64,000 nucleotides of DNA from contig CAVPHU010000004.1 of assembly GCA_963704815.1 (NCBI GenBank), forward strand, positions 2,354 through 66,353, in the 5' to 3' direction. Of this stretch, positions 5,786-55,537 are shown piece after piece; position 1 is the first letter of the stretch; each line of letters starts with the position of its first letter. The notes under the pieces are model-generated. The model was given only the letters and a program-made list of their open reading frames with translations. It was not told where the DNA came from and ran no database searches. This stretch comes from an uncultured Acidimicrobiaceae bacterium. GTDB taxonomy: Bacteria; Actinomycetota; Acidimicrobiia; Acidimicrobiales; Salinilacustritrichaceae. Made by a program: the position numbers and the translations under genes.

Positions 5786-8032
5786 ATGAGCGCGGGGATC
5801 GTGGCCGACATTGGGAATCGCCTGGTGGCGGCGAAGACCAGCGTTCCGCGCCTTCGCTCGGCGATCGTCCGGCGCCAGCGCCTGACGAGCCGGCTCGCCG
5901 CCAGCGCGGACCTCCCGCTGGTCGTCGTGTCGGCGCCGGTCGGATACGGCAAGACGACACTGCTCCTCGACTGGCTACAGCACGACGATCGCGCGATCGC
6001 GTGGGTGTCGTTGGATCGTGCCGACGACGACGTCGCGACGCTGATGACGTCGATCATCGCCGGGGTGAAACGGGTGCGAGAGCTCGACCCCTCCCTCTGC
6101 AGGGACCTGGGTTCGCCCGACGTCTCCGTCCTCGGCCGGGTCGTGCCGGGGTTGGCGGCCTCGATCGGTGCGGTCGATGAGCCGCTCGTCGTCGTGTTGG
6201 ACCGTCTCGAAGAGATCCGATCACTCGACTGCCATGACGCGCTCAGCCTGCTCCTCGATCTCCTGCCTGAGCAGGCTCAGTTGGTCGTCTCCAGTCGCCA
6301 GGAGGTGTGGCTCGCAGGGGGCCGTCGGCGCGTGCGCGGCGAGGTGCTCGAGATCGGCGCGGCCGATCTCGCCTTCGACACCGTCGAGACGGAGGAGCTC
6401 CTCGATCTCCACCAGTTGGCACCGTCACCCCAACGGGTTGGTCGGTTGCTCGAGCGAACGGAGGGATGGCCCGCCGGCCTGGCACTCCTCTTGCTCACCG
6501 ACCGAAGCGACTCCGCAACGACCGGTTCCAGCATCGCACCGTCGGCGCACGACCGGGCCGTTGCCGAGTTCATCCGATCGGAGGTCCTGACCGGGCTCTC
6601 GCCCGAGACCGTTCGCTTCCTCTATCGGACGGCGATCCTGGACGTGTTGAGCGCACCGTTGTGCGACGCGGTCCTCGACTCGACGCAGTCGGCCGAAGTG
6701 TTGGAGGGGTTGTTGAGTGCCGGCCTGCTCATCACGCCACTCGACAACAGCGGGGGGTGGTACCGCTACCACCCGCTCTTCAGAACCATGCTCCTCGACG
6801 AGGCCAGCCGTTTCGAACCGGACACCCTTCGGGAGCGCCACGTGCGCGCCGCTCGCTGGTGGGCGGCTGCCGGTTCCGTCGAGCACACGATCGAACATGC
6901 CCGGGCAGGCGGAGATCTCACCATCGCTGCTGACCTCATGGTCACGGAGGTGCCGCCGGCGTACAACGACGGACGGTCGAGCACGGTCAGGCGATGGCTG
7001 GACCAACTCGGCGAGGAGACGATCGTACGGAATCCGGAACTGGCCGGATTGGCCGGCTGGCTGGAAGCGTTGATCGGGAATGCCGTCGAAGCGCAGCGCT
7101 GGGCCGACCGCATCGAGCATCTGACATCCGAGGGTGTCCCGGAGGTCGATTCGTTCGTGTCGAGCCGTGCTGCGCTCCGGGCCTTTCTCTGTGCGCACGG
7201 CATCGAGCAGATGGAAGCGGACGCAAGATGGGTCGTGACCGATGAGCCGGTCTGGGGCCCATGGCGGCCCGCTTCCCTCGGCTTCCTGGCGGCGGCCCGA
7301 TGGCTGCAGGACGACGACGACGAGGCGTTCACACTCTTCTCGCAGAGCATCGAGGTGACGACCAGCGTCGACGGATTCGAGGACCCCGAGGCGCGCTACC
7401 TCGCCTACCGGGCGGTGCTGTCGATGGATCGTGGCGACTGGGCGAGTGCCGACCGCGACCTCGAACTCGCCGTCTCGGTGATCGATGCCGCACATCTCTC
7501 CGAGTACGCGGTCAACTCGATCGTCGAAGCGGCCCACGCCCGGCTGTTGCTGCACCACAACGAGAACGAGACGGGTCGGGCGTCGTTGTTCCATGCGATG
7601 CGTCTGCGGACGTCGGTCACCTGGGTGAACCCGTGGGGTGCGGTGTGGTTGCGTCTCGAGATGGCCGATGCCCACCTGGTGTTGAGCGATCCTGGGGCCG
7701 CGACGACCCTGCTCGAGGAGGTCGATGGGATCCTGTACCGGCGACCGAAACTCGGCCGCCTCGGCGCGCGTGCAGACGCGCTCCGACAGACGTTGAGCGA
7801 GTGGCCGACCAATCTGCACGGCACCGCACTGTCGACCGCCGAACTCCGTCTGCTGCCGTATCTGCAGACGCATCTCTCGCTCAAGGAGATCGGTGCACGG
7901 TTGTACGTTTCGAGGAACACGGTGAGCACACAGACCAACTCGATCTACCGGAAGCTGGCGGTGTCCTGCCGGAGCGATGCGGTCGACCGTGCCCGGGAGT
8001 TGGGCCTGCTGGCGCCGAACGTGCTCGGCTGA
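5786..8032 (+). CDS. LuxR-family transcriptional regulator, MalT/LAL-like (P-loop NTPase + helical repeats + C-terminal HTH)
   Basis: P-loop SAPVGYGKTTLL. C-terminal LuxR HTH: LSTAELRLLPYLQTHLSLKEIGARLYVSRNTVSTQTNSIYRKL. Confidence 0.85.
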   Translation: MSAGIVADIGNRLVAAKTSVPRLRSAIVRRQRLTSRLAASADLPLVVVSAPVGYGKTTLLLDWLQHDDRAIAWVSLDRADDDVATLMTSIIAGVKRVRELDPSLCRDLGSPDVSVLGRVVPGLAASIGAVDEPLVVVLDRLEEIRSLDCHDALSLLLDLLPEQAQLVVSSRQEVWLAGGRRRVRGEVLEIGAADLAFDTVETEELLDLHQLAPSPQRVGRLLERTEGWPAGLALLLLTDRSDSATTGSSIAPSAHDRAVAEFIRSEVLTGLSPETVRFLYRTAILDVLSAPLCDAVLDSTQSAEVLEGLLSAGLLITPLDNSGGWYRYHPLFRTMLLDEASRFEPDTLRERHVRAARWWAAAGSVEHTIEHARAGGDLTIAADLMVTEVPPAYNDGRSSTVRRWLDQLGEETIVRNPELAGLAGWLEALIGNAVEAQRWADRIEHLTSEGVPEVDSFVSSRAALRAFLCAHGIEQMEADARWVVTDEPVWGPWRPASLGFLAAARWLQDDDDEAFTLFSQSIEVTTSVDGFEDPEARYLAYRAVLSMDRGDWASADRDLELAVSVIDAAHLSEYAVNSIVEAAHARLLLHHNENETGRASLFHAMRLRTSVTWVNPWGAVWLRLEMADAHLVLSDPGAATTLLEEVDGILYRRPKLGRLGARADALRQTLSEWPTNLHGTALSTAELRLLPYLQTHLSLKEIGARLYVSRNTVSTQTNSIYRKLAVSCRSDAVDRARELGLLAPNVLG

Positions 8033-8684: not shown

Positions 8685-10436
8685 GTGATGGGCGCTGAGG
8701 GCGGCCAGACCGAGCACCGAGCCGCGTCGGAAACAAGCGCGATCAAACGCTTCGTTCCGATCCTGGTCTGGCTGCCGCAGTACCAGCGGTCATGGCTGAC
8801 GAAAGATGTGATCGCCGGGCTGTCGGTGTGGGCGCTGATGGTGCCCACCTCGCTCGGTTACGCGTCGCTGAGCGGCGTCCCGGTCCAGAACGGGTTGTAC
8901 GCCGCGGCGTTCGGCATGATCGTGTTCGCACTCTTCACCACCTCGAAGCAGCTGGTGCAAGGCCCGGGTTCGTCGACCGCCCCGGTTCTGGGTGCCGCGA
9001 TCGTGTCGATCGGAGCGGCGGGCTCCGAGGACGCAGTGGCGATCGCCACGGCCATCGTGCTTGTCGCCGGGCTGCTGTTCGTGATCATGGCCGTACTCAA
9101 GATGGGCTGGATCGCCGAGTTCCTCTCGGCGGCCGTGCTGACCGGGTTCATCTTCGGCGTCGCCATCAACGTCGTGTCCGGTGAGCTCTTCAAGATCACA
9201 GGGACCGAGAAGTCGGGTTCGAACACGTGGCAGAAGCTCTGGGAGTGGGCGACGAGCCTGTCCGACGCGAACCGGACCACGGTCGCCGTCGGCGTCGTGG
9301 CGCTGGTCGTGTTGTTCGGCCTCAAGTTCCTCGCGCCGAAGGTTCCAGCTGAACTGGTCGCAGTGGTCCTCGGCATTCTCGCGACCGTGGTCTTCGATCT
9401 CGGCGACCGCGGAGTCGAACTGATCGCCGACGTGCCGCGAGGCCTCCCGAATCCCTCGTTCCCCGACCTGCAGATCATCTTCGACAACTGGTCGGTGGTG
9501 GTCGGGGCAGCGGTCGGGCTGGTGCTCATCGGGTTCTCGGTGACGACCGCCGGGGTGCGCCAGTACGCGACCAAGCACAACTACCGGATCGACGTCGACC
9601 AGGAACTGCTCGCCCAGGGCATGTCGAACGTGTCGTCGAGCGTGTTCCAGGGGATCTTCAACAACGGCAGCCTCTCCAAGAGCCCGGTCAACGACGGCGC
9701 CGGGGCGCAGTCACAGGTATCGAGCCTCGCCCAGGGTGGCTTCGTCATCCTGACCCTGCTCTTCCTCGCGCCGATCTTCTCGAAGCTCCCCGAGGCGGTG
9801 CTCGGAGCGATCATCATCGAGGCCGTGACGCTCGGCATGATGAACGTCGGCGAGATGAAGCGACTGGTCACCGTCAAACGGTATGAGTTCGGCGCTGCGC
9901 TCGCCGCCCTGCTCGGTGTCATGACCTTCGGCATCCTGCAAGGTGTCTTCATCGGAGTCGGGATCTCGATGATCTGGCTGATCGCGGTCTCGGCGTTGCC
10001 GTACATCCCTGAGCTGGGGCGCAAGCCCGGGACCGATGCGTTCTACGACCTCGAGCAGCACGACGACTGTGAGACGATCGAAGGACTGAAGATCCTCCGG
10101 TTCGACGGCGGGTTGTTCTTCGTCAATGCCGATGCCCTCGCTGACCGTCTCCGCCAGATCCGGGTCGAGGTACCGACGGGGCTCGACGGGGTGATCCTGA
10201 GCATGGAGGGCATCAACTTCATCGACACCGAGGGAGCCGACGTCTTGATCGCGATCGCCCGGGCCGGCATCGACCAGAGCATCGACCTGCACCTCGCCCG
10301 CGTGAAGCCACAGGTGATCGAGGTGCTCGAGCGGGACGGCTTCTTCGACCTCGTCGATCGGGGCCACGTCCACGACAACATCGAGGCCGCGGTCGCCATG
10401 CATCAGACGCTCCACCCGAGCGCACCCGCTGACTGA
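8685..10436 (+). CDS. SulP family anion transporter with C-terminal STAS domain
   Basis: N-terminal LPQYQRSWLTKDVIAGLSVWALMVPTSLGYASLSGVP, multiple TM segments, and a STAS-like tail (ILRFDGGLFFVNADAL...). Confidence 0.85.
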   Translation: MMGAEGGQTEHRAASETSAIKRFVPILVWLPQYQRSWLTKDVIAGLSVWALMVPTSLGYASLSGVPVQNGLYAAAFGMIVFALFTTSKQLVQGPGSSTAPVLGAAIVSIGAAGSEDAVAIATAIVLVAGLLFVIMAVLKMGWIAEFLSAAVLTGFIFGVAINVVSGELFKITGTEKSGSNTWQKLWEWATSLSDANRTTVAVGVVALVVLFGLKFLAPKVPAELVAVVLGILATVVFDLGDRGVELIADVPRGLPNPSFPDLQIIFDNWSVVVGAAVGLVLIGFSVTTAGVRQYATKHNYRIDVDQELLAQGMSNVSSSVFQGIFNNGSLSKSPVNDGAGAQSQVSSLAQGGFVILTLLFLAPIFSKLPEAVLGAIIIEAVTLGMMNVGEMKRLVTVKRYEFGAALAALLGVMTFGILQGVFIGVGISMIWLIAVSALPYIPELGRKPGTDAFYDLEQHDDCETIEGLKILRFDGGLFFVNADALADRLRQIRVEVPTGLDGVILSMEGINFIDTEGADVLIAIARAGIDQSIDLHLARVKPQVIEVLERDGFFDLVDRGHVHDNIEAAVAMHQTLHPSAPAD

Positions 10437-13714: not shown

Positions 13715-14173
13715 GTGTCCGAAGAACTCCTCCAGATCCTGAAGCTGTGCCTCATGGCACTGCTCTACCTCTTCTTCTTCCGCGTCCTGCGAGCCGTGTG
13801 GGTCGAAGTCCGGGCACCGGCGCTCGCGGCCGGAGGCGCCGCTTCCCGCGAGCGGCGACCCAAGGCGAAGCGGGCACGCCCGATCGCCGCGCCGCAGCTG
13901 CACGTGGTCGAGCCCGCCGAGATCGCCGGCACCGCCTACGCACTCGGCGACGAGCTCACCGTCGGTCGGGCCGCCGGCTGCCAGATCACGCTCGATGACA
14001 CCTACGCCAGCCAGCTGCATGCGAGGGTGTTCAATCGGGGCGGGGAGTTGTACGTCGAGGATCTGGGCTCGACCAACGGCACCTACCTCAATCGACGCAA
14101 GGTGGCGGGCCCGATGGTGATGAAACGCGGTGACCGGGTGCAGATCGGCTCGACCGTGCTGGAGCTTCGATGA
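13715..14173 (+). CDS. fhaB: FhaB/FipA: membrane-anchored FHA-domain protein
   Basis: N-terminal TM LKLCLMALLYLFFF. FHA: LTVGRAAGCQITLDDTYASQLHARV...VEDLGSTNGTYLNRRKV. Its stop overlaps the pstP ATG (ATGA). Confidence 0.85.
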   Translation: MSEELLQILKLCLMALLYLFFFRVLRAVWVEVRAPALAAGGAASRERRPKAKRARPIAAPQLHVVEPAEIAGTAYALGDELTVGRAAGCQITLDDTYASQLHARVFNRGGELYVEDLGSTNGTYLNRRKVAGPMVMKRGDRVQIGSTVLELR

Positions 14174-16819
14174 CCATCTTCAACCTCCGGGTCGGATCGG
14201 CCACCGACGTCGGCCAACTCCGCAAGATCAACCAGGACGCCATCGTGGTCGACGGCGGCATCTTCGGCGTCGCCGACGGCATGGGTGGCCACCAGGGCGG
14301 CGAGGTCGCCAGCGCAGTGGCCGTCGAGGTCCTCGGACGCGGGATGGCCGCACCCACTCCGTCCGGATTCGAGGCAGCCGTCAAGGCCGCCAACCTGGCG
14401 GTCTACGAACAGGGGCAGGCTCGGGACGAGCTGGCGGGCATGGGCACCACCCTCGTCGCCATCGCCGAGATCGACGTCGACGACGAGGCCCACCTCGTGA
14501 TCGTCAACGTCGGCGACTCACGTGGCTACCTCCTCCGAGACCGCAAGCTCGTGCAGATCACCGAGGATCACTCCTTGGTCGCCGACCTGGTTCGAGCCGG
14601 CCGCATCACCGCCGAGGAGGCCGAGACCCACCCCCGCCGCAACATCGTCACCCGGGTCCTCGGACTCGACGAGAACGTCAGAGTCGACCAGTTCGCCGTG
14701 CTCCCGTTCGAGGGCGACCGGTTCCTCATGTGCTCCGACGGTCTCACCAACGAGGTCAGCGAAGCCGACATCACCGCCACGCTCGTCCGGGTCGACGACC
14801 CCACCGAGGCCGCCAACACGTTGGTTCGCATGGCCAACGAGGCCGGCGGTCGGGACAACATCAGCGTCGTCATCGTCGACGTGCTCGACGACGACGGCCA
14901 GGCCGTCCGGGCCAGCGCCACCATCGCCGACGAGCCTTCGTCACTCGAGTCCACCGACGATCTGACCGACCTCGCAGACGACGAGGCGGAAGAGCCCGAC
15001 GAGCCGCAGGACGAGCAGGAATCCGACGAGGCGGAAGAGCCCGACGACTCGCAGGACGAGCAGGAATCCGACGAGCTCGACGCCCTGGGCGAGCTCCGGA
15101 CCGCCGGGGTCATCGGCGCGGTCGGCGCCATGAGCGCCGCCAACGCAGCGGGTGCCGCCGGAGCGGTTGGGCCCGATGATCCAGGTCCCGACGAGGAGCC
15201 CTGGGTTCCTGAGCCCGGGTGGCTCGATGAGGACGACGAGATCGACGTGGGCGACGACCTCGCTGACGAGGTGGACCCGACCGAGGAAAGCGACTCCATC
15301 GCCGACGATCTGGAGTCCGAGCAGATCGGCCCATCGGACGCAGGCCGTGCGGGTCAGCCATGGGACGACCAAGCCGCCCCCGACGACCACGACACCGAAG
15401 CCGACCCAGGCCGTGCGGGCGAGCCATCGGACGACCAGGCCGCCCCCGACGACCACGACACCGAAGCCGACCCAGGCCGTGCGGGCGAGCCATCGGACGA
15501 CCAAGCCGCCCCCGACGACGACGACACCGAAGCCGACCAGGCCGTGCGGGCGAGCCATCCAACGACCAAGCCGCCCCCGACGACCACGACACCGAAGCCG
15601 ACCCAGGCCGTGCGGGCGAGCCATCCAACGACCAAGCCGCCCCCGACGACCACGACACCGAAGCCGACCCAGGCCGTGCGGGCGAGCCATCCAACGACCA
15701 AGCCGCCCCCGACGACCACGACACCGAAGCCGACCCAGGCCGTGCGGGCGAGCCATCCAACGACGAGGCCGCCACCGACGACGACGACATCGACCACGAG
15801 AACGCGACCGCCGAGATCGCCGCGCCGACCGCCGAAGCAGACACCGACACGGACGCAGACGACGACGAGGTCACCGACGACGAAGACCCAGAGACCGACG
15901 CGGACGAAGCCTCGCCGCGACGCGGCGCGGCGGCAACGGCCGTCATCGGCGCCACCGGTGCCGCGGCCCTGGCCGGCGGCAAAGCACGCGATTCTGCCGG
16001 AGTCACCATTGCCGCCGACCGGGCACGCACGCCGAAGCCGGAGGCGTCGCAGGCATCCGAGCCGGACGCCGCAGCCGACGACAAGCTCTCGCGCCGCCAA
16101 CGCAAGAAGCAGGCCAAGACCGACGACGCCGCCGCGGCCGACGAGCCAGCAGCCGACGACAAGCTCTCGCGCCGCCAACGCAAGAAGCAGGCCAAGACCG
16201 ACGACGCCGCCGCGACCGGTGCAGCCGCAGTCGCCGACGGCGACGCCCCGACGACGAGCTCGGTCGACGATCTCGCCGGATTCGGTCGGGCGCTCGACGA
16301 CTCACAGCTGGCCGACGCCGAGACGTCGGTGCCGACGACGACGACGACGACCTCGACGACCTCATCCCGACCCGGCGCCGGTTCAGCTGGCGGGTCGCCG
16401 CGTTCCTCTTCCTGTTCTGCGCGGTGATCGGGGTCGCCATCGGCGCCCTCGGCGTCTATGCGCGGGGGACCTACTACGTCGGCTACGACGACAATCGGGT
16501 CGCGATCTTCCAAGGCCGCCCCGGGGGCGTGCTGTTCTTCGACCCCACCGTCGAGGCGCACAGCAACATCATCCGCGCCGAGTTGCTGCCCGTCTCGGCG
16601 GACAAGGTCGACGACGACCCCGATTTCGGCACGTTCGGCGAGGCCCAGGTGTTCATCACCAACCTGCAGCTGGTCGACGTCGACACGCTCCCGGTGACGG
16701 GCGAACCCGGCAGCTTCGACGGCGCGGCCGAACCCCCCGCAACGCCGTCGACGACCGCCATCCCGCTTCCCCCCGAAGCCCCGACGCCGGCAGGCTCCCC
16801 CGACACCACCGCCGGCTGA
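14170..16819 (+). CDS. pstP: PstP: PP2C Ser/Thr phosphatase with a very long acidic repeat linker and a C-terminal TM/extracellular segment. Needs two 1-nt frame corrections (about 15539 and about 16325).
   Basis: PP2C motifs QDAIVVDGGIFGVADGMGGHQGGEVAS and DNISVVIVDV. C-terminal RRRFSWRVAAFLFLFCAVIGV...YYVGYDDNRVAIFQGRPGG lies in another frame and ends at the TGA at 16817-16819. Confidence 0.8.
15343..15800 (+). repeat. About 7 tandem copies of a 66-bp coding repeat (GRAGEPS[D/N]DQAAPDDHDTEADP)
   Basis: Copy starts at 15343, 15409, 15475, 15540, 15606, 15672 and 15738. Copy 3 is 65 nt. Confidence 0.95.
16074..16215 (+). repeat. Two tandem copies of a 78-bp coding repeat (ADDKLSRRQRKKQAKTDDAAA...)
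   Basis: Identical first ~62 nt at 16074 and 16152. Confidence 0.9.
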
Positions 16820-18141
16820 TGGGCCGACTGCGCCGCACGACCGAGCTCGGGCTGCTGGTCCTCGCGGTCATCATCACGACGGGTGCCTACACCCTGGCGA
16901 GCCTCGGCCGAGACGCCACGATTCCGGCCAACATCGGCCCGTTCCTCGCCCTGCTGCTCGCACTGTTCATCGGGGCCCACATCGCCATCCGCAAGCTGGC
17001 GCCGAACGCCGACGGTGTGCTCTTCCCGCTCGCCGCCCTGCTCAACGGCATCGGCTACGTCTTCATCGTCAGGATCGACGAGGCCAAGGCCGATCCCGAC
17101 GGCCTCGCCGCCTACCAGCTCACCTGGACCGCCCTCGGCATCGCCTGCTTCATCGCCACCCTCTTCGTCATCCGCCGAGCCCGCGACCTCGAGCGCTATC
17201 GCTACACCTTTCTCCTGATCGGCGTCGCCCTCCTGGTGATCCCGCTCGTCCCGTTCGTCGGCCGCGAGATCAACGGTGCGCAGATCTGGGTGAGCATCGG
17301 GCCGGTCAACTTCCAGCCGGGCGAGTTCGCGAAGATCGCGCTGGCGCTGTTCTTCGCCGGCTACCTCGTCGAGCGACGCGAACTCCTGGCCATGAGCACC
17401 TGGCGGCTCGGACCGCTCCATCTCCCCGACCCCAAGGTGCTCGGACCGGTCCTGCTGGCCTGGGGGGTCTCCCTCGTCATCATGACCCTCGAGAAGGATC
17501 TCGGAAGCTCGTTGCTGTTCTTCGCTCTGTTCGTCGCCCTGCTGTGGATCGCCACTGAGCGGGTGGGCTACCTCGCGATCGGCGGGGTGCTGTTCGCCGG
17601 CGGGGCCATGCTCGCCTGGTCGACCTTCGCTCACGTGCGCGAACGGGTGGAGATCTGGCTGAACCCGTGGCCGGTGGCGAAGGACGAGGGCTTCCAGGTC
17701 GTCGAAGCCGGGTTCGCGGTGGCCGACGGTCAGCTCACCGGGACCGGCCTGGCCCTCGGCAACCCGCTGCGTATCCCCGAGGTCGAGACCGACTTCATCT
17801 TCGCGGCGATCGCCGAAGAGCTCGGCCTGTTCGGCGGCACTGCGATCCTGGTCGCCTTCATGCTGATGATCGGAGCCGGTCTGCGCATCGCGGTCCGGGC
17901 CGACAACCCGTTCGAGAAGTTGCTGGCGGCCGGGCTCACCACCCTGATCGGGGTGCAGAGCTTCATCATCATCGCCGGGGTCATCCGGGTCCTCCCGCTC
18001 ACCGGGGTCACCCTTCCGTTCGTCAGCTACGGCGGCTCGTCCCTGGTGGCCAACTACATCCTCCTTGCGCTGCTCTTGCGCATCAGCGACACCCGCTCGA
18101 CACGCACCGCCGAGGATGCACTCGAGGCCGTGCCGACATGA
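16819..18141 (+). CDS. rodA: FtsW/RodA/SpoVE-family peptidoglycan polymerase
   Basis: MGRLRRTTELGLLVLAVIITTG..., multi-TM, SEDS motifs (PGEFAKIALALFFAGYL, GVTLPFVSYGGSS). The ATG overlaps the pstP stop (TGATG). Confidence 0.9.
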   Translation: MGRLRRTTELGLLVLAVIITTGAYTLASLGRDATIPANIGPFLALLLALFIGAHIAIRKLAPNADGVLFPLAALLNGIGYVFIVRIDEAKADPDGLAAYQLTWTALGIACFIATLFVIRRARDLERYRYTFLLIGVALLVIPLVPFVGREINGAQIWVSIGPVNFQPGEFAKIALALFFAGYLVERRELLAMSTWRLGPLHLPDPKVLGPVLLAWGVSLVIMTLEKDLGSSLLFFALFVALLWIATERVGYLAIGGVLFAGGAMLAWSTFAHVRERVEIWLNPWPVAKDEGFQVVEAGFAVADGQLTGTGLALGNPLRIPEVETDFIFAAIAEELGLFGGTAILVAFMLMIGAGLRIAVRADNPFEKLLAAGLTTLIGVQSFIIIAGVIRVLPLTGVTLPFVSYGGSSLVANYILLALLLRISDTRSTRTAEDALEAVPT

Positions 18142-45908: not shown

Positions 45909-46730
45909 TCAACCACTGGGCGTGAAGTGGACCTCGTCGCCTTCGCTGATCGTGCCCGGGGTCCTCACCTCGGCGTAGACGCCCAGGCAGGCGAAGTCGC
46001 CGAAGCCCCCGACATCGTGGCGGTTGTGTTCGGCGATCTTCTCGAGGACATCCGGCCGCCGGTCGAGGTCACCTTGGGCGACGGTCGTCATGACGCACCG
46101 CGGCGACGGGTCGCCGACCACGATCTCGACGTCGCCGATCGTGAGCGTGCCGCCCCTCCAGCCTTCCTCGACCATGCCGTCGCCATCGGCGGCGATGACC
46201 AGGCTCGGCCGGAACCGGCGCACGTCGGCGACCGCGTCGCCAACCCACCCATCGAGCGTTCTCATCGACGCAGTCGTCAGCAGGTGAAGGGTTGCGAGAT
46301 CGACGAAGCTCGGTGAGTCGGTTTCCATCGCGACCGGGAAGTCCATCTCACCCGACAGCACCAGACCCTCGATCTCCGGCCACTCCGACGCATAGACCTC
46401 GTCGACCGGAGCTTCGCTCACCACCTCGACCGGGCGTCCCACGGCATCGCTCAGCAACGACGCAGCCGAAGGATCGTCGAGCCGAATCCGCTCGCCGTGC
46501 GGCGTGGTGACCTCGGCACTGCCACCGCTGAGCACCACCGAGAAGTCGAGCAGGTGCCCCCAGCGAGCCGGCCGCTTGGCGCTCACGATCTTGCCGGTCT
46601 CGGTGTCTCGCAGCGCCCACCGCCGGTCACCGTCGATCCCGCCGGTGTCGAGCGCCGATGCATCCAACCGCTCACCCGCCATCGATTTCACCGGATAGCG
46701 CCAGATCTCGGCCACGGTCCCGACCTGCAT
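45909..46730 (-). CDS. MOSC domain-containing protein
   Basis: MQVGTVAEIWRYPVKSMAGERL (MOSC_N) and ...GDPSPRCVMTT (conserved Cys). Confidence 0.8.
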   Translation of the reverse strand: MQVGTVAEIWRYPVKSMAGERLDASALDTGGIDGDRRWALRDTETGKIVSAKRPARWGHLLDFSVVLSGGSAEVTTPHGERIRLDDPSAASLLSDAVGRPVEVVSEAPVDEVYASEWPEIEGLVLSGEMDFPVAMETDSPSFVDLATLHLLTTASMRTLDGWVGDAVADVRRFRPSLVIAADGDGMVEEGWRGGTLTIGDVEIVVGDPSPRCVMTTVAQGDLDRRPDVLEKIAEHNRHDVGGFGDFACLGVYAEVRTPGTISEGDEVHFTPSG

Positions 46731-46888
46731 GGGCGCAGCGTAGCTGCGAGGTCGACGGTCAGCTCGAGGAGGACGAGCCCGAGTGGGACCCGTCGGCAAC
46801 GTCGGCGAACTCGACGTCCGCAGCCGCTGAGCCTCTCGACGAGGGCGGTCCACGGGGTCGTGGCGGGCGGTCTTGCTAGGTTCCGCTG

Positions 46889-47803
46889 GTGGTCGTCCCG
46901 CCGGCTGAGTCTTCCGGGGCCGCTCCGACCGTCGAGATCGTCCATCAGTTCCGAGGTGACGGGCGAGGCACGTTCGCGCTGTTCCACTTCGTGTGGGCGC
47001 AGCTCCATTGCACCGATGCACGGTTCGTGAAGCGGGTCTCGATTCTCGATGGCGACCAGGACTTCTGGGGGCAGCTGTTCGAACCGCCGGACACCGAGCT
47101 GTCGCCCTCGGGCGAGGAGATCCAGGTCCCGCTGCTCGGGTTCCGCGACTACTCGCCGCAACTCGACGGCGTGATCGACGAGGAGATCGACCAGAGCTTC
47201 ATCGTGCATCGCGTCTTTCTCGGCTACCCGACCGGCCGGGAGTTCCAGGCAACCCTCGAGGACGTCGAGCTCCGGAGGCGGATGGCGACGGCGGTCGAGG
47301 CGAACTGCCGGCCGCGCCGGTGGGTTCGTGTCGACGCGGAGCGTTCACGGGCGCACATGGGTCACGAGTTCGTGATCGGTCTGCACCTCCGGAGCACCTA
47401 TCACCTCGGCGCGGAGATGACGGCTGAGCGCTACATCCACGACGTCGTCGTTCCCGAGGTGCTCCGGATCGTCGAGGAGCGAGGCGTCGATGACTACGCC
47501 GTGTTCGTGGCGACCATCGTCGGGGACTATCTCAGGGAGTGCGAGGTGGCGTTCGGCGATCGACTCTTCCACCGCGACGTCGCCCTCGTCGATGATCCAT
47601 CGCTCGACTTCTTCTCACTCGATGCCACTGCGTTCGAGAAGGCGCGCGACGTCCTCGTGGACAGCCTGGTTCTGGCCGGCTGCGACTTCGTGTTGGGGGT
47701 ACCGTCGAACGTGCTCATCGCGACGCTGATCTTCAATCCCGAGCTGCCGTTCAAGACGTTCGACCACTTCGCCGACGCGGACGAAGCGCCTGCGTTCTGC
47801 TGA
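46889..47803 (+). CDS. Hypothetical protein with weak fucosyltransferase/NodZ-like glycosyltransferase motifs
   Basis: High GC3. VIGLHLRSTYH and DSLVLAGCDFVLGVPSNVLIATLIFNP resemble GT motif pairs. Assignment is tentative. Confidence 0.45.
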   Translation: MVVPPAESSGAAPTVEIVHQFRGDGRGTFALFHFVWAQLHCTDARFVKRVSILDGDQDFWGQLFEPPDTELSPSGEEIQVPLLGFRDYSPQLDGVIDEEIDQSFIVHRVFLGYPTGREFQATLEDVELRRRMATAVEANCRPRRWVRVDAERSRAHMGHEFVIGLHLRSTYHLGAEMTAERYIHDVVVPEVLRIVEERGVDDYAVFVATIVGDYLRECEVAFGDRLFHRDVALVDDPSLDFFSLDATAFEKARDVLVDSLVLAGCDFVLGVPSNVLIATLIFNPELPFKTFDHFADADEAPAFC

Positions 47804-47813
47804 TCGTTCCCGT

Positions 47814-48482
47814 GTGATCGTCTTCGTCGACTACGAGCACGAGCGGGGCCGCTCGGCCCCGTGGGGCGAGCGTTCGATGGCCGCTCGCACCAGGATCACC
47901 TACCGGCTCGAGGACCTGTCCGGACAGCCGTGCATGCTCGTGCGCTACGACCGCATCACCGAGCAGCTCGTCGACCGGATCGGTGCAACCGCGCTGTGCA
48001 TCAGTGGCAACGGCACCCCTCCCGACCGCTATGACCCCGAAGCGCTCCGACCGCTGCTCGACCTCGTCACCGGCCGCCGGCTCCCGGTCTTCGGCTTCTG
48101 CGGTGGCTTCCAGTTGCTCGCCGAGGCGCTCGGATCCGACCTCGTGCCGCTCGGCCCGACCGACGCGCCGCCGGCCGACGACAGCCCCTACCCACCCGGC
48201 ATCGGGCACGAGTACGGCTACGCACCCGTCGACGTCGTCGCCGAACACCCTTTGCTCGAAGGGCTCGGCGCGGCACCGGTCTTTCGCCATGCCCACATGC
48301 TCCACGTGCCCGAACCACCCGCCGGGTTCGAGGTCCTGGCCTCGACCGAGCTCACGCCGGTGCAGATGGCCGTCGACGACACCCACAAGATCGTCGGCAC
48401 CCAGTTCCATCCCGAGTACTGGACCGACGAGCACCCCGCCGGCCGGACGCTCATCGAGAACTTCTTCGCCTGGGTCGAGTAG
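47814..48482 (+). CDS. Class I glutamine amidotransferase-like protein
   Basis: PVFGFCGGFQLLAEALG (nucleophile elbow) and GTQFHPEY. Confidence 0.75.
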   Translation: MIVFVDYEHERGRSAPWGERSMAARTRITYRLEDLSGQPCMLVRYDRITEQLVDRIGATALCISGNGTPPDRYDPEALRPLLDLVTGRRLPVFGFCGGFQLLAEALGSDLVPLGPTDAPPADDSPYPPGIGHEYGYAPVDVVAEHPLLEGLGAAPVFRHAHMLHVPEPPAGFEVLASTELTPVQMAVDDTHKIVGTQFHPEYWTDEHPAGRTLIENFFAWVE

Positions 48483-48501: not shown

Positions 48502-48828
48502 TCAGGCGCCTTCGGGCTGGAACCAGAGCTCGATGATGGCCGAGTCCTCGGCGAACGCAGCGGCGTGCGACGTGCCGGCCGGCAGGTCGTACCAGTCGCC
48601 CGTGTCGTAGAAGCGCGACTCGCCGGAGACGATCAGTTCGAGGCGGCCCTTGGTGACGATCCCGACGTTGTGGGAGGGGTGGTCGTGGGCGTCGAGGGTC
48701 GTCCCGCCGGGGTAGGAGGCGAACAGGACGTCACACCCGTCGGCGGCGAGACGGAAGGCATCGAAGGGCCCGTCGAAGGCCGGGAGGTCGGTGATCTGGG
48801 CGGGGAAGTGGTCGACGGTGTCGCTCAT
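48502..48828 (-). CDS. Cupin domain protein
   Basis: 108 aa. GGTTLDAHDHPSHNVGIVTKGRLELIV...WYDLPAGTSHAA. Confidence 0.75.
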   Translation of the reverse strand: MSDTVDHFPAQITDLPAFDGPFDAFRLAADGCDVLFASYPGGTTLDAHDHPSHNVGIVTKGRLELIVSGESRFYDTGDWYDLPAGTSHAAAFAEDSAIIELWFQPEGA

Positions 48829-48881: not shown

Positions 48882-49979
48882 ATGAAGTCCGCTCGCCTCG
48901 ATGGGATCGAACTCCGCGACGGGGTCGATCGCGCGGTCGACCGGACGTGGAAGCGCATCGGGAAGCCGGGAACGGTCTGGACCGGGCCGCAGCGAGTCAC
49001 CATCGCCCGGGAGTTCCGCCGCGCTCACGCCTGTCATCTGTGCGCCGAGCGCAAGCGAGCGCTCTCCCCGTCCGCGGTCGACGGCACCCACGCCACGGTC
49101 GGCGATCTTCCGGCGGCGGCCGTCGACGCAGCCCACCGCATCGCCACCGACTCGGGTCGCCTGTCGAGTCGCTGGTACGACGAGTTCCTCGATGCCGGAC
49201 TCGGACCCCAACATCTGGTCGAGCTCACCGGCGTCGCTGCCACCGTCGCGGCGGTCGACACGTTCCATCGGGCGGTCGGTCAGGACCCACCGAGGCTGCC
49301 CGCGGCCCGTCGGGGGAAGCCTTCCGACGACCTGGCCGATGTCGCCATCATCCATTCGGCACGCGTCCCGACCGTGGCGCTCGAAGATGCCGTCGATCCG
49401 CTCGCCGGCTTCTATGCCGCGCAGCAGATGGTCCCGAACATCATGAAGGCGCTCACCCTGTGCCCCGACGAGACCATTGCGTTCTACGGGCTCGCCCATC
49501 ACCTCTACTCACTCGGGCCGGGAGCGCCGCCCGACGACTGGACGCTCAGCCGTCCGCAGATCGAGCTCGTCGCGGCCACCGTCTCGAACCACAACGACTG
49601 CTTCTACTGAACGACAGCCCACTCGTTGCTGCTCGGTCTGGGCGGCCTCTCCGAGGGTTCGGCCTTCGACATGACCATCGTCGCTGCCGACGCAGACGCA
49701 GGTGACGGCGGTGTCCCGCACGGCGACGTGCTTCGACGGTTCGCGCTGGCCGTGGTCTCCCACGATGATCCGAGTGCCATCGCAGCGGCGCGCGACGCGC
49801 TGCGCCACGCCGTCGGCCCCGCCGGGCTCGGCGACGCCTGCGGAGTCGTCGCCAACTTCGACGGCATCACCCGCGTGGCCGACGCCACCGGCACCGAGGT
49901 CGACGAGGTGATGGTCGAAGGCGTCGCCGCCGGCGTCCTCGGCGACTTCGACACGTCACATCTCCAGACGCTCGACTGA
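48882..49979 (+). CDS. AhpD/carboxymuconolactone-decarboxylase-family protein with an in-frame TGA (49608-49610) at the second Cys of CxxC. Candidate selenoprotein, or a nonsense-disrupted gene.
   Basis: ...VSNHNDCFY-TGA-TTAHSLLLGLGG... fits C-x-x-[C/U]-x3-H. The same frame stays open with high GC3 for 122 further codons. Confidence 0.6.
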
Positions 49980-50006: not shown

Positions 50007-51752
50007 ATGACCGACGCACCCACGCTGCCTGCGAGCTTCGAACCCGACGACGGCCGGACGACCACCGGACCGGCCGGCGAGATCGCCCACGAGCGGCTGG
50101 TGGCACACGCCGAGCGCTTCACCCAGCGCCTCGTCTCGGTCGGCGACGACGCCTGGTGCATGATCGGCAACGGCCTCTCCAACCAGAACTTCGTGCGCGG
50201 ACCGGAGGGCATCATCGCCATCGACTCGGGCGAATCGATCGAGGAGATGACCGAGGCGCTCGAGGCGCTGCGCCAGGTCACCGACGAGCCCGTCGTGGCC
50301 GCCATCTACACCCACTTTCACTACGTCAACGGCACCGAGGCCCTGTTCAACGACGGTGCCGATCGATCGATCCCGATCTGGAGTCACTCCAAGGTCACCG
50401 AGAACCTCCGACGCCAGGGCATCGAGCTCTACGCCGTCGGGGCACGCGGGTTGGTGCAGCAGTTCGGCATCTTCCTCCCCGAAGAGGGCCCCGACGGCGT
50501 GCTGGTCGCCGGACTCGGTCCCCGCTACCGCAAAGCCGACCACGCACCGTTCACGCCGGGCTTCGTGCCTCCGACGAACACGATCGACGACGCCACCGAG
50601 GTCACCATTGCCGGACTCCGGACCATCCTTCGACCGGCACCGTCGGACGCCGACGACAACGTCACCATCGTCTTTCCCGACCTCGGCGTCTGTGTCAACA
50701 ACCTCGTGTGGCCGGTGCTGTTCAACGTCTTCGCCATCCGCGGCGAGGAATACCGCGACCCACGCGTGCTCCTGACGGGCATCGACGAAGTGCTGTCGTT
50801 CGAGCCCGAGCACCTCATCGGTGCCCACGGCCCACCGATCTCGGGTGCACGCGAGATCCACGACGTGGTCACCCGGTCGCGGGATGCCATCCAGTTCCTG
50901 TGGGACCAGACGGTGCGAGGCATCAACCTCGGGATGACGGCCGGCGAGTTGACCGAGTTCGTCCAGCTCCCGGCCCTCTACGACGAGCACTACCTGACCC
51001 AGCAGCACTACGGGCTGGCCGAACACCATGTCCGCCAGATCTTCAACGGCCTGCGGGGCTGGTTCGACGGCGACGAATCCACGCTGTTCCCCCTGCCCAC
51101 CATCGAGCGGTGCACCCGGCTGATCGAGGGGTTCGGTGGCCGCACCGAGGTCGCAGCCCAGGCACGGGCTGCGCTCGAGGCCGAGGACCTGCGCTGGGCG
51201 CTCGAGCTCTCGACGTGGCTCGTCCGCAGCAAGATCGGGCCGTACGGACGGGCCGACGGCGGGACCCCCGACGAACGTGAGCTGCTCGCCGATGCGCTCA
51301 GGGCGATCGGCCAGCGGACGACTTCAGCCAACATCCGCAACTGGACGCTCACCCGTGCCCGAGAGTTGGAGGGCAACCTCGACCTGAGTCGGTTCCGGGG
51401 CTTCCGGTTCAGCCGGGGGGCCGTGCTGGCCGCCGAGGTCGACGCGTACGTCCACGGTCTGCGGGTCGTGCTCGATCCTCGGGCCGCCGAGGGGGTCGAC
51501 GAGCGGCTGGCCTGGCGCTTCGACGACGGGACGATGGTGGGGCTGCACGTTCGCAACTGCATCGCGGTGCCGACGGACGGCGCTGCTGCTGCGACGACGC
51601 TCGTGCTGTCGCAGGAGGCCTGGGCCGACGTGCTGGGCGCCCGGACCACCATGTCCGAAGCCATCGACAGCGGCGCCGTCGTGGTCGAGGGCTCGGCCGA
51701 CACCGCGCTCCGGGTCCTCCGCTGCTTCGACCACCCGCCATTGCGAAGCTGA
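50007..51752 (+). CDS. Alkyl-sulfatase-like protein (MBL fold + dimerisation + SCP2-like C-terminal domain) with a non-canonical metal motif
   Basis: Three-domain architecture. GWFDGDESTLFPLP and RWALELSTWLV are typical of the dimerisation domain. The HxHxDH position reads HFHYVN. Confidence 0.65.
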   Translation: MTDAPTLPASFEPDDGRTTTGPAGEIAHERLVAHAERFTQRLVSVGDDAWCMIGNGLSNQNFVRGPEGIIAIDSGESIEEMTEALEALRQVTDEPVVAAIYTHFHYVNGTEALFNDGADRSIPIWSHSKVTENLRRQGIELYAVGARGLVQQFGIFLPEEGPDGVLVAGLGPRYRKADHAPFTPGFVPPTNTIDDATEVTIAGLRTILRPAPSDADDNVTIVFPDLGVCVNNLVWPVLFNVFAIRGEEYRDPRVLLTGIDEVLSFEPEHLIGAHGPPISGAREIHDVVTRSRDAIQFLWDQTVRGINLGMTAGELTEFVQLPALYDEHYLTQQHYGLAEHHVRQIFNGLRGWFDGDESTLFPLPTIERCTRLIEGFGGRTEVAAQARAALEAEDLRWALELSTWLVRSKIGPYGRADGGTPDERELLADALRAIGQRTTSANIRNWTLTRARELEGNLDLSRFRGFRFSRGAVLAAEVDAYVHGLRVVLDPRAAEGVDERLAWRFDDGTMVGLHVRNCIAVPTDGAAAATTLVLSQEAWADVLGARTTMSEAIDSGAVVVEGSADTALRVLRCFDHPPLRS

Positions 51753-54739: not shown

Positions 54740-55537
54740 TCAGGCGTGCGCCGTGACGATGTGGGCCGGCGCGTCGAACACCATCTCGCCGGAATCGACC
54801 ACGTAGGACCCGAGGGCATCGTCGGCCTCGACGAGAATCTGCTCGATCAGGTCTTCCTCGAGTTCGACGCCCATGACCGGCAGCCAGCCGCGCAGGTCGG
54901 CCTCGACCATCGAGCGCACGCTCGGAAACCGAGCGGTCCCCTGGCGAGTCTCGAGCGAGATCGACGAGGCACCGGCCTCCTCGAACAACCGGCGCAACTC
55001 GGCGGGGTCGCCGAGCACGAACGGGGCACGCAGCGCGTCAGCCGCAGCCGGACCGGCCAGCCGCTCCAACAGGTCGACCGAGATCGGGTAGGCGTCGGAC
55101 CGGTCGAGGGATTCCCAGACGGCAACGGCGATGCCGGCCCCGGGCTTGGCACAGCGCAGCAGTTCGGTGATCGCTTGGACCCGATCCGGGAAGAACATGA
55201 GGCCGAACTGGCTGACGACGGCGTCGAAGACACCATCGTCGAAGGGGAGCCGGCCGGCGCCACCCTCGGTCCAGGTCACGCGAGGCTCGAGTTGCTCGGC
55301 GACCGCCAGCATGCCCGGATCGATGTCAAGCCCCGTCACCGCACCGGTCGGGCCGACTCGACCCACCGCTTCGCGAGCCACGACGCCGGTTCCGCACGCC
55401 ACGTCGAGCACGGAGTCGCCGTCGGTCACGCCCGCAGCATCGAGCATCGGAGCAGCCCACTGCCGAAACAGGGCGTCGACGTGCAGGCGTTCGTAGGCCC
55501 ACGCACCTTCAACCGCCGGATCGAGCGGCTCAGCCAT
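54740..55537 (-). CDS. Class I SAM-dependent methyltransferase
   Basis: Motif I VLDVACGTG. FDAVVSQFGLMFF. Confidence 0.85.
   Translation of the reverse strand: MAEPLDPAVEGAWAYERLHVDALFRQWAAPMLDAAGVTDGDSVLDVACGTGVVAREAVGRVGPTGAVTGLDIDPGMLAVAEQLEPRVTWTEGGAGRLPFDDGVFDAVVSQFGLMFFPDRVQAITELLRCAKPGAGIAVAVWESLDRSDAYPISVDLLERLAGPAAADALRAPFVLGDPAELRRLFEEAGASSISLETRQGTARFPSVRSMVEADLRGWLPVMGVELEEDLIEQILVEADDALGSYVVDSGEMVFDAPAHIVTAHA

What the first reader, a model, noticed from the sequence alone, without database searches (positions are those of the whole stretch)
48882..49979. In-frame TGA exactly at the second Cys of the CxxC motif of an AhpD/CMD-family protein: candidate selenocysteine (C-x-x-U)
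ORF 48882-49610 stops at ...ATVSNHNDCFY-TGA (49608-49610). The same frame then stays open for 122 more codons (TTAHSLLLGLGGLSEG... to the TGA at 49977-49979) with the same G/C-rich third positions, so coding continues. The AhpD/carboxymuconolactone-decarboxylase core signature is C-x-x-C-x3-H. Here it reads C-F-Y-[TGA]-T-T-A-H, so the stop replaces the second cysteine, which as I recall is the attacking one in M. tuberculosis AhpD. AhpD-like proteins are a reported prokaryotic selenoprotein family. A stem-loop can form 22-46 nt after the TGA: lower stem CTCGG 49632-49636 with CCGAG 49651-49655, upper stem GGG 49640-49642 with CTC 49647-49649, loop CGGC. That position is compatible with a bacterial SECIS, but the fold is modest. 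Gene callers would report a truncated 242-aa ORF plus an orphan 117-aa ORF.
Basis: partly seen in the sequence, partly recalled or inferred. Interest (0 to 1): 0.75.

Follow-up and report, generated by a model that had tools for sequence, protein, structure and literature searches.

The report
Known AhpD-related selenoprotein gene (CFYUT family)
The in-frame TGA is almost certainly a genuine selenocysteine codon in a 365-residue AhpD-related redox protein, but the family has been a recognised selenoprotein family since 2005 and has its own NCBI model, so this is a correct but ordinary find.

Summary
ORF 48882-49610 ends ...C-F-Y-TGA, and the frame stays open for 122 more codons to TGA 49977-49979. 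The read-through product scores 367 bits (cut-off 175) against NCBIfam NF041238 'AhpD_rel_CFYUT, alkylhydroperoxidase-related (seleno)protein'. A 2026 review equates this family with 'hypothetical protein 1' of the 2005 Sargasso Sea selenoproteome (CxxU).

All 82 gene copies in 80 related genomic loci plus this window carry TGA at this column, with 114-163 open codons after it (one locus ends at its contig edge). Seventeen of 18 aligned full-length homologues carry Cys there. The AhpD proton-relay residues are present with AhpD spacing (E228, C240, Y242, U243, H247).

It is a 7-bp hairpin at 49628-49646 (loop GGUCU, 24 nt after the UGA, -9.7 kcal/mol). It meets all published bacterial SECIS criteria, is 93% paired across 82 sequences with compensatory changes, is absent from six Cys-form genes, and has near-frozen synonymous sites.

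selA-selB-tRNA-Sec lie directly upstream of the gene in L026; tRNA-Sec is adjacent in three loci. The source genome's own Sec machinery is not in the window, so it remains untested. Novelty and interest are low.

The parts
48882..49979 (+). Complete selenoprotein gene: 365 codons (242 + Sec + 122) plus the true stop. Member of NCBIfam NF041238 AhpD_rel_CFYUT.
   Evidence: 367 bits against a cut-off of 175; protein residues 12-346 match model positions 2-341 of 357, so the match spans the TGA; homology to Cys-form proteins over the full length.
48882..49409 (+). N-terminal ~176-residue helical domain with no Pfam or PDB sequence match. It carries the conserved C51-x-x-C54 (codons 49032-49034 and 49041-49043), H70 and H85. 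Possibly a diverged second AhpD-like repeat.
   Evidence: C54, H70 and H85 invariant, C51 at 90% or more. (most of residues 11-150 at pLDDT 80-97, all helical). (Foldseek not significant; top hits are AhpD/CMD proteins, E = 1.4). (hhalign of N domain against C domain, E = 0.013, probability 3.4%, the two CxxC motifs in register). (no Pfam hit). Lead only.
49410..49976 (+). C-terminal AhpD-like ('peroxidase-related', COG2128/TIGR01926-type) domain. It contains the active-site residues E228 (49563-49565), C240 (49599-49601), Y242 (49605-49607), U243 (49608-49610) and H247 (49620-49622).
   Evidence: profile matches to 3c1l (6.7e-15), 6k40, 2pfx, 2oyo and 2prr over profile positions ~185-350. TIGR01926, 2e-09; relay residues of MtAhpD and PA0269 for comparison.
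49608..49610 (+). In-frame UGA read as selenocysteine (U243), at the second position of the CxxC/U redox motif.
   Evidence: TGA in 82 of 82 gene copies. Cys in 17 of 18 full-length homologues at this column. TGA is the ordinary stop for 41 of 51 genes in the window, so the recoding is local.
49628..49646 (+). Bacterial SECIS hairpin. 5' arm GCUGCUC (49628-49634), apical loop GGUCU (49635-49639), 3' arm GGGCGGC (49640-49646). 24 nt separate the UGA from the loop.
   Evidence: -9.7 kcal/mol, z = -2.7; 93.4% of cells paired against 28-51% in slid controls, 3 pairs with compensatory changes, 0 of 500 shuffles reach the observed pairing. RNAalifold finds only this hairpin; weak or absent in 6 Cys-form genes; frozen synonymous sites; published bacterial SECIS criteria all met.
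49977..49979 (+). True stop codon (TGA, with no SECIS after it). The next gene (alkyl-sulfatase-like) starts at 50007.

Best explanation
Window 48882-49979 (+) is one gene for a 365-residue selenoprotein of the curated family NF041238 (AhpD_rel_CFYUT). During translation, the UGA at 49608-49610 is decoded as selenocysteine rather than stop. The mRNA forms a 7-bp hairpin at 49628-49646, 24 nt downstream, and this hairpin has the hallmarks of a bacterial SECIS. By analogy with other bacterial selenoprotein genes (inferred), the Sec-specific elongation factor SelB binds the hairpin and delivers Sec-tRNA(Sec) to the UGA. The product has an N-terminal helical domain with its own CxxC and a C-terminal AhpD-like domain whose redox centre is C240-F-Y-U243, flanked by E228 and H247. 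That arrangement matches the Glu/Cys/(His or Tyr)/Cys/His proton relay of AhpD. By analogy (inferred), the selenolate at U243 is the exposed nucleophile that attacks an oxidised partner or substrate, such as a peroxiredoxin sulfenate or disulfide or another disulfide or hydroperoxide. C240 then resolves the intermediate by forming a selenenylsulfide, which an upstream reductant recycles. What is shown here: the coding continuity, the family membership, the Sec/Cys column, the relay residues, and the conserved TGA-linked hairpin. What is inferred: actual Sec insertion in this organism, the redox chemistry, and the substrate, which is unknown.
For: Family: NF041238 at 1.1e-109, 367 bits against a cut-off of 175, spanning the TGA; a review equates this model with a CxxU selenoprotein family first reported in 2005. 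Conservation of the recoding site: 13 of 13 database homologues end in C[F/V]Y; 82 of 82 gene copies carry TGA, and every copy not cut by a contig end (81 of 82) has 114-163 open codons after it; about 128 of 150 representatives are truncated at this column. Sec/Cys pair: 17 of 18 full-length homologues have Cys at the column, and the downstream domain is homologous, with H247, L251, R304, G312 and G337 conserved. SECIS: it meets all four published criteria (for the criteria, for the energy); covariation and controls; an independent RNAalifold prediction; the hairpin is specific to TGA forms (6.5 of 7 pairs and -8.7 kcal/mol, against 4.8 of 7 and -2.5 kcal/mol in six Cys-form genes); synonymous sites are frozen (Leu CUC 82 of 82 against 35% elsewhere in the same genes; Arg CGU 65 of 78 against 10%; Ser AGC 70 of 74 against 31%). 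Local recoding: TGA ends 41 of 51 genes in the window. Sec machinery is linked to the family: tRNA-Sec lies next to the gene in L026, L045 and L069, with selA and selB upstream in L026 and selA in L069. Active site: solved AhpD-like structures align CxxC-x3-H on C-F-Y-U-x3-H, and the relay residues and their spacing match MtAhpD and PA0269.
Against: No selA, selB, selD or tRNA-Sec lies in the 64-kb window, and the rest of the source genome could not be reached, so the Sec trait of this particular organism is unverified. No other selenoprotein gene was seen in the window (a crude scan). Pfam CMD is below threshold. No peroxiredoxin or other conserved partner lies nearby, so the substrate is unknown. 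In B. thailandensis AhpD the first Cys, not the second, matters more, so the assignment of U243 as the attacking residue rests on analogy with MtAhpD only. No Rfam SECIS model matches, although those models are known to miss bacterial SECIS elements.
Confidence: 0.88

Rival explanations
1. Relic selenoprotein gene. The lineage has lost Sec decoding, so translation stops at 49608-49610, giving a 242-residue truncated and probably inactive product. The downstream part is no longer expressed.
For: No Sec machinery in the 64-kb window, and no second selenoprotein gene there.
Against: The downstream 122 codons are intact with coding-type GC3 of 0.85 and keep the family's conserved residues. The SECIS still meets all criteria at -9.7 kcal/mol. 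The nearest relative, L001 (Acidimicrobiales, 70% identity), has the same TGA, the same open frame and the same loop variant, with a change in the 3' arm that still keeps the pairing. That pattern indicates continued selection, not decay. Sec machinery is documented in another order of class Acidimicrobiia. A 64-kb window would not be expected to hold the sel genes anyway.
Confidence: 0.07
2. Sequencing or assembly error, or a recent nonsense mutation of a TGC/TGT Cys codon. On this reading the gene is a Cys-form gene or a pseudogene.
For: TGA differs from TGC/TGT by a single base, and Cys forms of the family exist.
Against: TGA is at this column in 82 of 82 independent gene copies. It is accompanied here by the TGA-specific hairpin, which the Cys-form genes lack. 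An error would not come with a SECIS.
Confidence: 0.02
3. UGA is read by something other than Sec: a genome-wide reassignment (code 4 or 25), or SECIS-independent near-cognate suppression inserting Trp or Cys.
For: Only that the frame continues past the UGA.
Against: TGA terminates 41 of 51 GC3-supported genes in the window, including this gene itself at 49977. The conserved hairpin and the adjacency of selA, selB and tRNA-Sec in relatives point specifically to Sec.
Confidence: 0.01
4. Two separate genes: a 242-aa protein, and a 117-aa protein started at TTG 49626.
For: A TTG exists in frame at 49626, and gene callers output these two pieces.
Against: Cys-form homologues are single 339-418-residue chains covering both parts. 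The split would cut the AhpD-like domain between the two redox residues and separate C240 from H247. NF041238 matches across the junction.
Confidence: 0.02

Closest known systems
NCBIfam NF041238 'AhpD_rel_CFYUT', alkylhydroperoxidase-related (seleno)protein; the same as 'hypothetical protein 1' of the Sargasso Sea selenoproteome (Zhang et al. 2005, PMC1088965; listed in PMC13188914)
   Same: Full-length match well above the curated cut-off. The same C-F-Y-U-T motif, the same ~360-residue two-part architecture, and the same Sec/Cys polymorphism at the column.
   Different: Nothing essential. This copy, like its Acidimicrobiales relative L001, has a lineage variant of the SECIS loop (GGUCU instead of the family consensus CGUGC) and a G.U pair in place of a U-A pair in the stem. 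It encodes LLLGLGG where most members encode LLLRASG.
AhpD-like selenoproteins 'AhpD-like 1' (COG2128/TIGR01926, CxxU) and 'AhpD-like 2 / CMD-like' (PF02627, CxxU) of marine metagenomes (PMC2398784, PMC1088965)
   Same: An AhpD-type helical domain with Sec at the second position of the CxxC, and a SECIS hairpin immediately downstream.
   Different: Those are single-domain proteins of about 180 residues. This family has an extra ~180-residue N-terminal domain with its own CxxC, and it scores below the thresholds of TIGR01926 (37.5 against 81.8) and PF02627 (16.1 against 23).
Mycobacterium tuberculosis AhpD (Cys130-x-x-Cys133, Glu118, His137) and P. aeruginosa PA0269
   Same: The same relay residues and spacing: E228/C240/Y242/U243/H247 here, E118/C130/H132/C133/H137 in MtAhpD, and E36/C48/Y50/C51/H55 in PA0269. 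Sec replaces the Cys that attacks AhpC in MtAhpD.
   Different: Sequence similarity is only remote. There is no adjacent ahpC or peroxiredoxin gene. The nucleophile is Sec instead of Cys. The reducing and oxidising partners are unknown.
Consensus bacterial SECIS (bSECIS model of Zhang and Gladyshev, as summarised in PMC13188914)
   Same: [quoted passage not shown] All are within the published ranges.
   Different: No Rfam covariance model recognises it. It is a short hairpin without an extended lower stem; the small stem next to the UGA in the window is not conserved.

Membership tests
NCBIfam NF041238 AhpD_rel_CFYUT (seleno)protein | Whole-protein HMM score above the curated cut-off (175 bits), with near full-length coverage | tested here: met
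   367 bits, E = 1.1e-109; protein residues 12-346 on model positions 2-341 of 357 (Cys used as a placeholder at the TGA).
NCBIfam NF041238 AhpD_rel_CFYUT (seleno)protein | C-F-Y-U-T motif with U encoded by an in-frame TGA (or Cys in non-Sec members) | tested here: met
   C240-F-Y-[TGA]-T; the same motif with TGA in 82 of 82 gene copies. Cys in 17 of 18 full-length forms.
Bacterial selenoprotein gene (general criteria) | The in-frame UGA aligns with Cys in homologues, and homology continues downstream | tested here: met
Bacterial selenoprotein gene (general criteria) | bSECIS: 3-9 nt apical loop, 4-16 bp upper stem, G in the first two loop positions, 16-37 nt between UGA and loop, MFE of -7.5 kcal/mol or lower (PMC13188914) | tested here: met
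   5-nt loop GGUCU, 7 bp, 24 nt, -9.7 kcal/mol.
Bacterial selenoprotein gene (general criteria) | The SECIS structure is conserved with covariation across orthologues and is tied to the UGA | tested here: met
   93.4% paired against 28-51% in controls, 3 compensatory pairs. RNAalifold; weak or absent in 6 Cys-form genes; synonymous sites frozen.
Bacterial selenoprotein gene (general criteria) | selA, selB, selC (tRNA-Sec) and selD present in the same genome | not testable with these tools
   None are in the 64-kb window, and the source record was not retrievable. In relatives: tRNA-Sec lies next to the gene in L026, L045 and L069; selA and selB in L026, and selA in L069.
Bacterial selenoprotein gene (general criteria) | Selenium actually incorporated into a full-length product | not testable with these tools
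   Needs 75Se labelling or mass spectrometry.
AhpD / carboxymuconolactone decarboxylase (Pfam PF02627 CMD) | Score above the Pfam gathering threshold (23 bits) | tested here: not met
   16.1 bits, E = 0.011, residues 222-248 only. TIGR00778 ahpD_dom scores 15.3 against 27.8. So the protein is AhpD-related at superfamily level, not a Pfam CMD member by the curated cut-off.
AhpD-like structural superfamily | Profile-level homology to solved AhpD-like structures over the whole domain | tested here: met
   3c1l at 6.7e-15, 6k40 at 7.6e-15, 2pfx at 1.8e-13, 2oyo and 2prr, covering about 160 residues.
AhpD-like structural superfamily | Proton-relay residues Glu ... Cys-x-(His/Tyr)-Cys-x3-His with AhpD spacing | tested here: met
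   for the reference residues. E228 (invariant in A1/A2, at least 90% in A4), C240, Y242, U243, H247; E to C is 12 residues, as in MtAhpD (118 to 130).
AhpC/AhpD peroxidase system | Genetic linkage to ahpC or another peroxiredoxin, or demonstrated AhpC reduction | tested here: not met
   neighbours are MOSC, GATase, cupin and alkyl-sulfatase-like proteins; no partner recurs across the 80 loci. Enzyme activity is not testable here.

The most novel reading that the evidence does not exclude
The uncharacterised N-terminal ~180 residues may be a diverged second AhpD-like repeat. Its conserved C51-x-x-C54 (with H70 and H85) would form a second redox or metal centre that exchanges electrons with the C240-x-x-U243 centre. 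That would make the family a self-contained two-centre selenol/thiol relay rather than a simple AhpD adaptor. Separately, the Acidimicrobiales copies carry a distinct SECIS loop variant (GGUCU), which could reflect a lineage-specific SelB.
Probability: 0.25. Interest if true: 0.3.

Novelty: already known. Interest (0 to 1): 0.13.

Why it matters
The practical value is in annotation. Ordinary gene callers split this gene into a 242-aa fragment and an orphan ORF, and the public protein collection holds the truncated form. Most of the family's representatives there (about 128 of the best 150) are truncated in the same way. Recognising the Sec codon restores a 365-residue redox protein, and it implies that the source organism, probably an Acidimicrobiales actinobacterium, uses selenocysteine. 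Scientifically it adds little, because the family, its CxxU motif and the general SECIS model are already published and curated. The modest additions are: a comparative definition of this family's SECIS, including a control against Cys-form genes; the adjacency of selA, selB and tRNA-Sec in some genomes; and a hint that the N-terminal domain is a second AhpD-like repeat. The protein's substrate and physiological role are still unknown.

Tried and rejected
Rejected.
- A small stem next to the UGA (AACGA/UCGUU, rel. 3-7 with 16-20) appears in the window's MFE fold but is not conserved (38% paired, within the 9-45% range of the slid controls). Rejected.
- Rfam found no SECIS family, either at gathering thresholds on the whole window or at E <= 10 on 49560-49720. 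This is uninformative, because Rfam covers bacterial SECIS elements poorly.
- Folding 49605-49680 as a whole gives z = 0.03 against shuffles. In 68% GC sequence, bulk energy does not discriminate; only the isolated hairpin (z = -2.7) and the comparative data do.
- The source record could not be retrieved: exact look-ups of P0001 and of the downstream gene product found no contig, and the cluster look-up gave no accession. The genome-wide Sec machinery therefore could not be checked.
- No sel genes turned up in four further NCBIfam batches on the rest of the window plus the neighbour batch.
- My crude scan for other in-frame TGAs between coding-like segments returned only ordinary gene junctions. 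It also missed the true site at its thresholds, so it is insensitive and says little.
- Conserved gene neighbourhood: the window's neighbours are shared only with L001. In de novo clustering the top clusters were antisense shadow ORFs of the gene itself, and no real partner occurred in more than 9 of 80 loci.
The Foldseek search of that model against the PDB was not significant.
- Global TGA reassignment is rejected, because TGA is the main stop codon in the window.
Full report
1. OBSERVATION. An ORF starts at ATG 48882 and runs to ...N-H-N-D-C-F-Y followed by TGA at 49608-49610. The same frame then stays open for 122 codons (TTAHSLLLGLGG...) to a second TGA at 49977-49979. The window is 68% GC. 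A third-position GC (GC3) gene call gives 0.84 for the upstream piece and 0.85 for the downstream piece, both typical of real genes here. TGA ends 41 of 51 GC3-supported genes in the window. A genome-wide reassignment of TGA is therefore excluded, and any read-through must be local.

2. WHAT THE PROTEIN IS. With Cys as a placeholder at the TGA, Pfam gives only a sub-threshold CMD hit (16.1 bits against a gathering score of 23, residues 222-248). NCBIfam gives a decisive match to NF041238 'AhpD_rel_CFYUT, alkylhydroperoxidase-related (seleno)protein': E = 1.1e-109, 367 bits against a cut-off of 175, with residues 12-346 on model positions 2-341 of 357, so the match runs across the TGA. The model's name spells out the motif found here (C-F-Y-U-T). 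[quoted passage not shown] The 2005 paper reported that family as a new selenoprotein family with a conserved CxxU motif, Cys homologues and a downstream SECIS-like stem-loop (PMC1088965). AhpD-like CxxU selenoproteins in general are among the most abundant marine selenoprotein families (PMC2398784). The family and its Sec codon are therefore already known.

3. IS THE TGA CONSERVED, AND DOES IT PAIR WITH CYS?
- All 13 homologues found by the word-indexed search (37-100% identity) are 228-254 aa long and end in C-[F/V]-Y. They are truncated at the same column.
- A scan of one genome per species found 492 relatives. In the best 80 loci (Acidimicrobiales, Alpha-, Gamma- and Deltaproteobacteria, Myxococcota, Binatia, Dormiibacterota and others), every gene copy has TGA at the column, with 114-163 open codons after it wherever the locus extends that far. 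Counting the window and one tandem paralogue, that is 82 of 82 copies.
- An exhaustive profile search found 1513 family representatives. Of the best 150, about 128 end exactly at the last profile position, and 22 are 339-418 aa long.
- Aligning 18 of the long ones with the window's read-through product places Cys at the TGA column in 17. The exception, P0124, has lost both redox residues (S...G).
- The 122 downstream residues are homologous throughout, with H247, L251, R304, G312 and G337 conserved.
This is the classic Sec/Cys pair.

4. ACTIVE SITE. A profile of the family matches solved AhpD-like 'peroxidase-related' structures over about 160 residues of the C-terminal half: 3c1l at 6.7e-15, 6k40 at 7.6e-15, plus 2pfx, 2oyo and 2prr. 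The family's C-F-Y-C/U-x3-H lines up with their CxxC-x3-H.
- The AhpD proton relay is Glu118, Cys130, His132, Cys133, His137 in M. tuberculosis, and Glu36, Cys48, Tyr50, Cys51, His55 in PA0269 (PMC3141380).
- The window protein has E228, C240, Y242, U243, H247 with identical spacing. E228 is invariant or nearly invariant in the family.
- In MtAhpD, Cys133 rather than Cys130 forms the cross-link with AhpC Cys61 (PMC6626918).
- The same paper reports that the first Cys matters more in B. thailandensis AhpD, so the assignment is an analogy and not a certainty.

5. THE SECIS. In every locus, a hairpin sits in the same register 21-39 nt from the U of UGA.
- In the window it is GCUGCUC (49628-49634), loop GGUCU (49635-49639), GGGCGGC (49640-49646).
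- On an ungapped alignment of 82 sequences it is paired in 93.4% of cells, against 28-51% when the 3' partners are slid. Three pairs show compensatory changes, and 0 of 500 shuffles reach the observed pairing or covariation.
- RNAalifold independently predicts this hairpin and nothing else.
- It meets all four published bacterial SECIS criteria (3-9 nt loop, 4-16 bp stem, G in the first two loop positions, 16-37 nt spacing, MFE of -7.5 kcal/mol or lower; PMC13188914). Here the values are a 5-nt loop starting GGU, 7 bp, 24 nt and -9.7 kcal/mol.

Because the hairpin lies in coding sequence, I ran two controls against protein-level conservation.
- Six Cys-form genes (L081-L086) average 4.8 of 7 pairs and -2.5 kcal/mol in the same register. 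The TGA forms average 6.5 of 7 pairs and -8.7 kcal/mol.
- Synonymous sites in the hairpin are nearly frozen. Leu at codon +8 is CUC in 82 of 82 genes (35% of Leu codons elsewhere in the same genes). Arg at +9 is CGU in 65 of 78 (10% elsewhere), and CGC, at 46% elsewhere, is never used. Ser at +11 is AGC in 70 of 74 (31% elsewhere).

It is paired in only 32.9% of cells, which is control level, so it is not the SECIS. A small stem next to the UGA in the window's MFE fold is not conserved either. The window and its nearest relative L001 share a lineage variant: loop GGUCU instead of CGUGC, and G.U in place of U-A at one pair. The variant keeps the G-U of the loop and all seven pairs.

6. SEC MACHINERY. 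The window contains only a tRNA-Leu and no selA, selB or selD among its genes. The source record could not be retrieved, so the Sec trait of this organism is untested. That is the main gap.

In relatives the link is direct. tRNA-Sec (UCA) lies 0.1-1.4 kb upstream of the family gene in L026, L045 and L069. In L026 the order is selA (580 bits), selB (403 bits), tRNA-Sec, then this gene, and L069 has selA upstream of the tRNA.

The window is actinobacterial. It has the fhaA-fhaB-PP2C-FtsW/RodA-PBP-PknB cluster at 12.9-22.2 kb. Its nearest relative is an Acidimicrobiales MAG, at 70% identity for this gene and 77-88% for the neighbours. Sec machinery has been reported in another order of class Acidimicrobiia (Actinomarinales preprint).

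7. SURROUNDINGS. The neighbours are a MOSC-domain protein (45909-47021, -), a class-I glutamine amidotransferase (47814-48482, +), a cupin (48502-48828, -), an alkyl-sulfatase-like metallo-beta-lactamase protein (50007-51752, +, starting 28 nt after the true stop), another cupin and a GFO/IDH/MocA oxidoreductase. There is no peroxiredoxin. These neighbours are shared only with L001, and no gene recurs beside the family gene in more than 9 of 80 loci. The gene is therefore stand-alone, and its context gives no clue to a substrate.

8. N-TERMINAL DOMAIN. Residues 1-176 match nothing in Pfam or in PDB sequences, but they are conserved, with C51-x-x-C54, H70 and H85 invariant or nearly so.
- An AlphaFold model of the 242-residue product is confident over most of residues 11-150 (pLDDT 80-97) and is all-helical.
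- Its Foldseek hits are not significant, although the top ones are all AhpD/CMD proteins (E = 1.4, TM 0.34-0.50).
- A profile-profile comparison of the N- and C-terminal halves gives E = 0.013 but a probability of only 3.4%. It aligns C51-x-x-C54 exactly on C240-x-x-U243, with V39 and K58 in place of the Glu and His.
I treat a tandem AhpD-like repeat with a second CxxC as a lead, not a result.

9. MECHANISM AND RIVALS. The best explanation is SECIS-dependent insertion of Sec at U243 of an AhpD-type selenol/thiol oxidoreductase (confidence 0.88). What is shown: coding continuity, family membership, the Sec/Cys column, the relay residues, and the TGA-linked conserved hairpin. What is inferred: SelB recruitment, actual Sec insertion in this organism, the nucleophilic role of U243, and the substrate.
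- Rival 1: a relic gene in a lineage that lost Sec decoding (0.07). The intact SECIS, the intact downstream frame and the conserved relative argue against it.
- Rival 2: two separate genes (0.02). The single-chain Cys forms argue against it.
- Rival 3: a base error or nonsense mutation (0.02). The accompanying SECIS argues against it.
- Rival 4: non-Sec read-through or reassignment (0.01). TGA is the main stop codon here.

10. VERDICT. The feature is a member of a selenoprotein family that was published in 2005 and is curated in NCBIfam under a name that contains the motif. It is therefore already known, and interest is low (0.13). It is useful mainly as an annotation correction and as indirect evidence that the source actinobacterium uses selenocysteine.

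Noticed in passing
L026 5243-8785 and 9956-11100; L045 5164-8710; L069 6244-9883: selA, selB and tRNA-Sec (selC) sit immediately upstream of the AhpD_rel_CFYUT gene in L026 (a gammaproteobacterial MAG). L045 (gammaproteobacterial) has the same ORF sizes plus tRNA-Sec. L069 (an alphaproteobacterial MAG) has selA plus tRNA-Sec. This is physical linkage between the Sec-insertion operon and one of its client genes.
   Followed up: partly
L035 near 4413; L073 11821 and 10709: L035 has a second in-frame TGA gene about 6 kb upstream with the motif VSMINGCEY-TGA-IDSH and 184 open codons after it, probably a different AhpD-like CxxU selenoprotein. L073 carries two tandem paralogues of the family, both with TGA and both with the hairpin.
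   Followed up: no
window 14170-18141 (+): A single uninterrupted 1323-codon ORF combines an N-terminal PP2C Ser/Thr phosphatase (aa 12-236, Stp1/PstP-like) with a C-terminal FtsW/RodA (aa 950-1308). In mycobacteria these are separate adjacent genes (own knowledge, not checked here). This could be a true fusion, or two genes that happen to share a frame with no stop between them.
   Followed up: no
window 3-1091 (+): A MobF/TraA-type relaxase fragment lies at the left edge of the window, followed by a MalT-like regulator (5786-8032) and a SulP transporter (8685-10436). This suggests a conjugative or integrative element nearby.
   Followed up: no
window 49628-49646 and L001 4811-4829: The two Acidimicrobiales copies share a SECIS variant (loop GGUCU, 3' arm starting GGG, encoding L-G-L-G-G) that differs from the CGUGC/GAGC consensus (encoding L-R-A-S-G) seen in nearly all other phyla. 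It may reflect a lineage-specific SelB preference.
   Followed up: partly
P0124 and P0140 (full-length homologues): P0124 has Ser and Gly in place of the Cys and Sec/Cys (EQSFYGTTLH), so it is probably redox-dead. P0140 has CFSC and has also lost the N-terminal first Cys. These look like degenerate members of the family.
   Followed up: no
window 54740-55537 (-): A class I SAM methyltransferase (UbiE/MenG-like). Its methyltransferase domain also gives weak hits to NCBIfam models of ArsM-type fusion selenoproteins (NF041537, NF041536, NF047649). Only the methyltransferase domain matches, and no in-frame TGA was seen.
   Followed up: no
L001-L080, strand opposite the family gene: Long antisense 'shadow' ORFs (139-284 aa) overlap the family gene in 30-66 of the 80 loci and cluster as if they were conserved neighbours. 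This is a high-GC artefact that could mislead neighbourhood analyses.
   Followed up: yes
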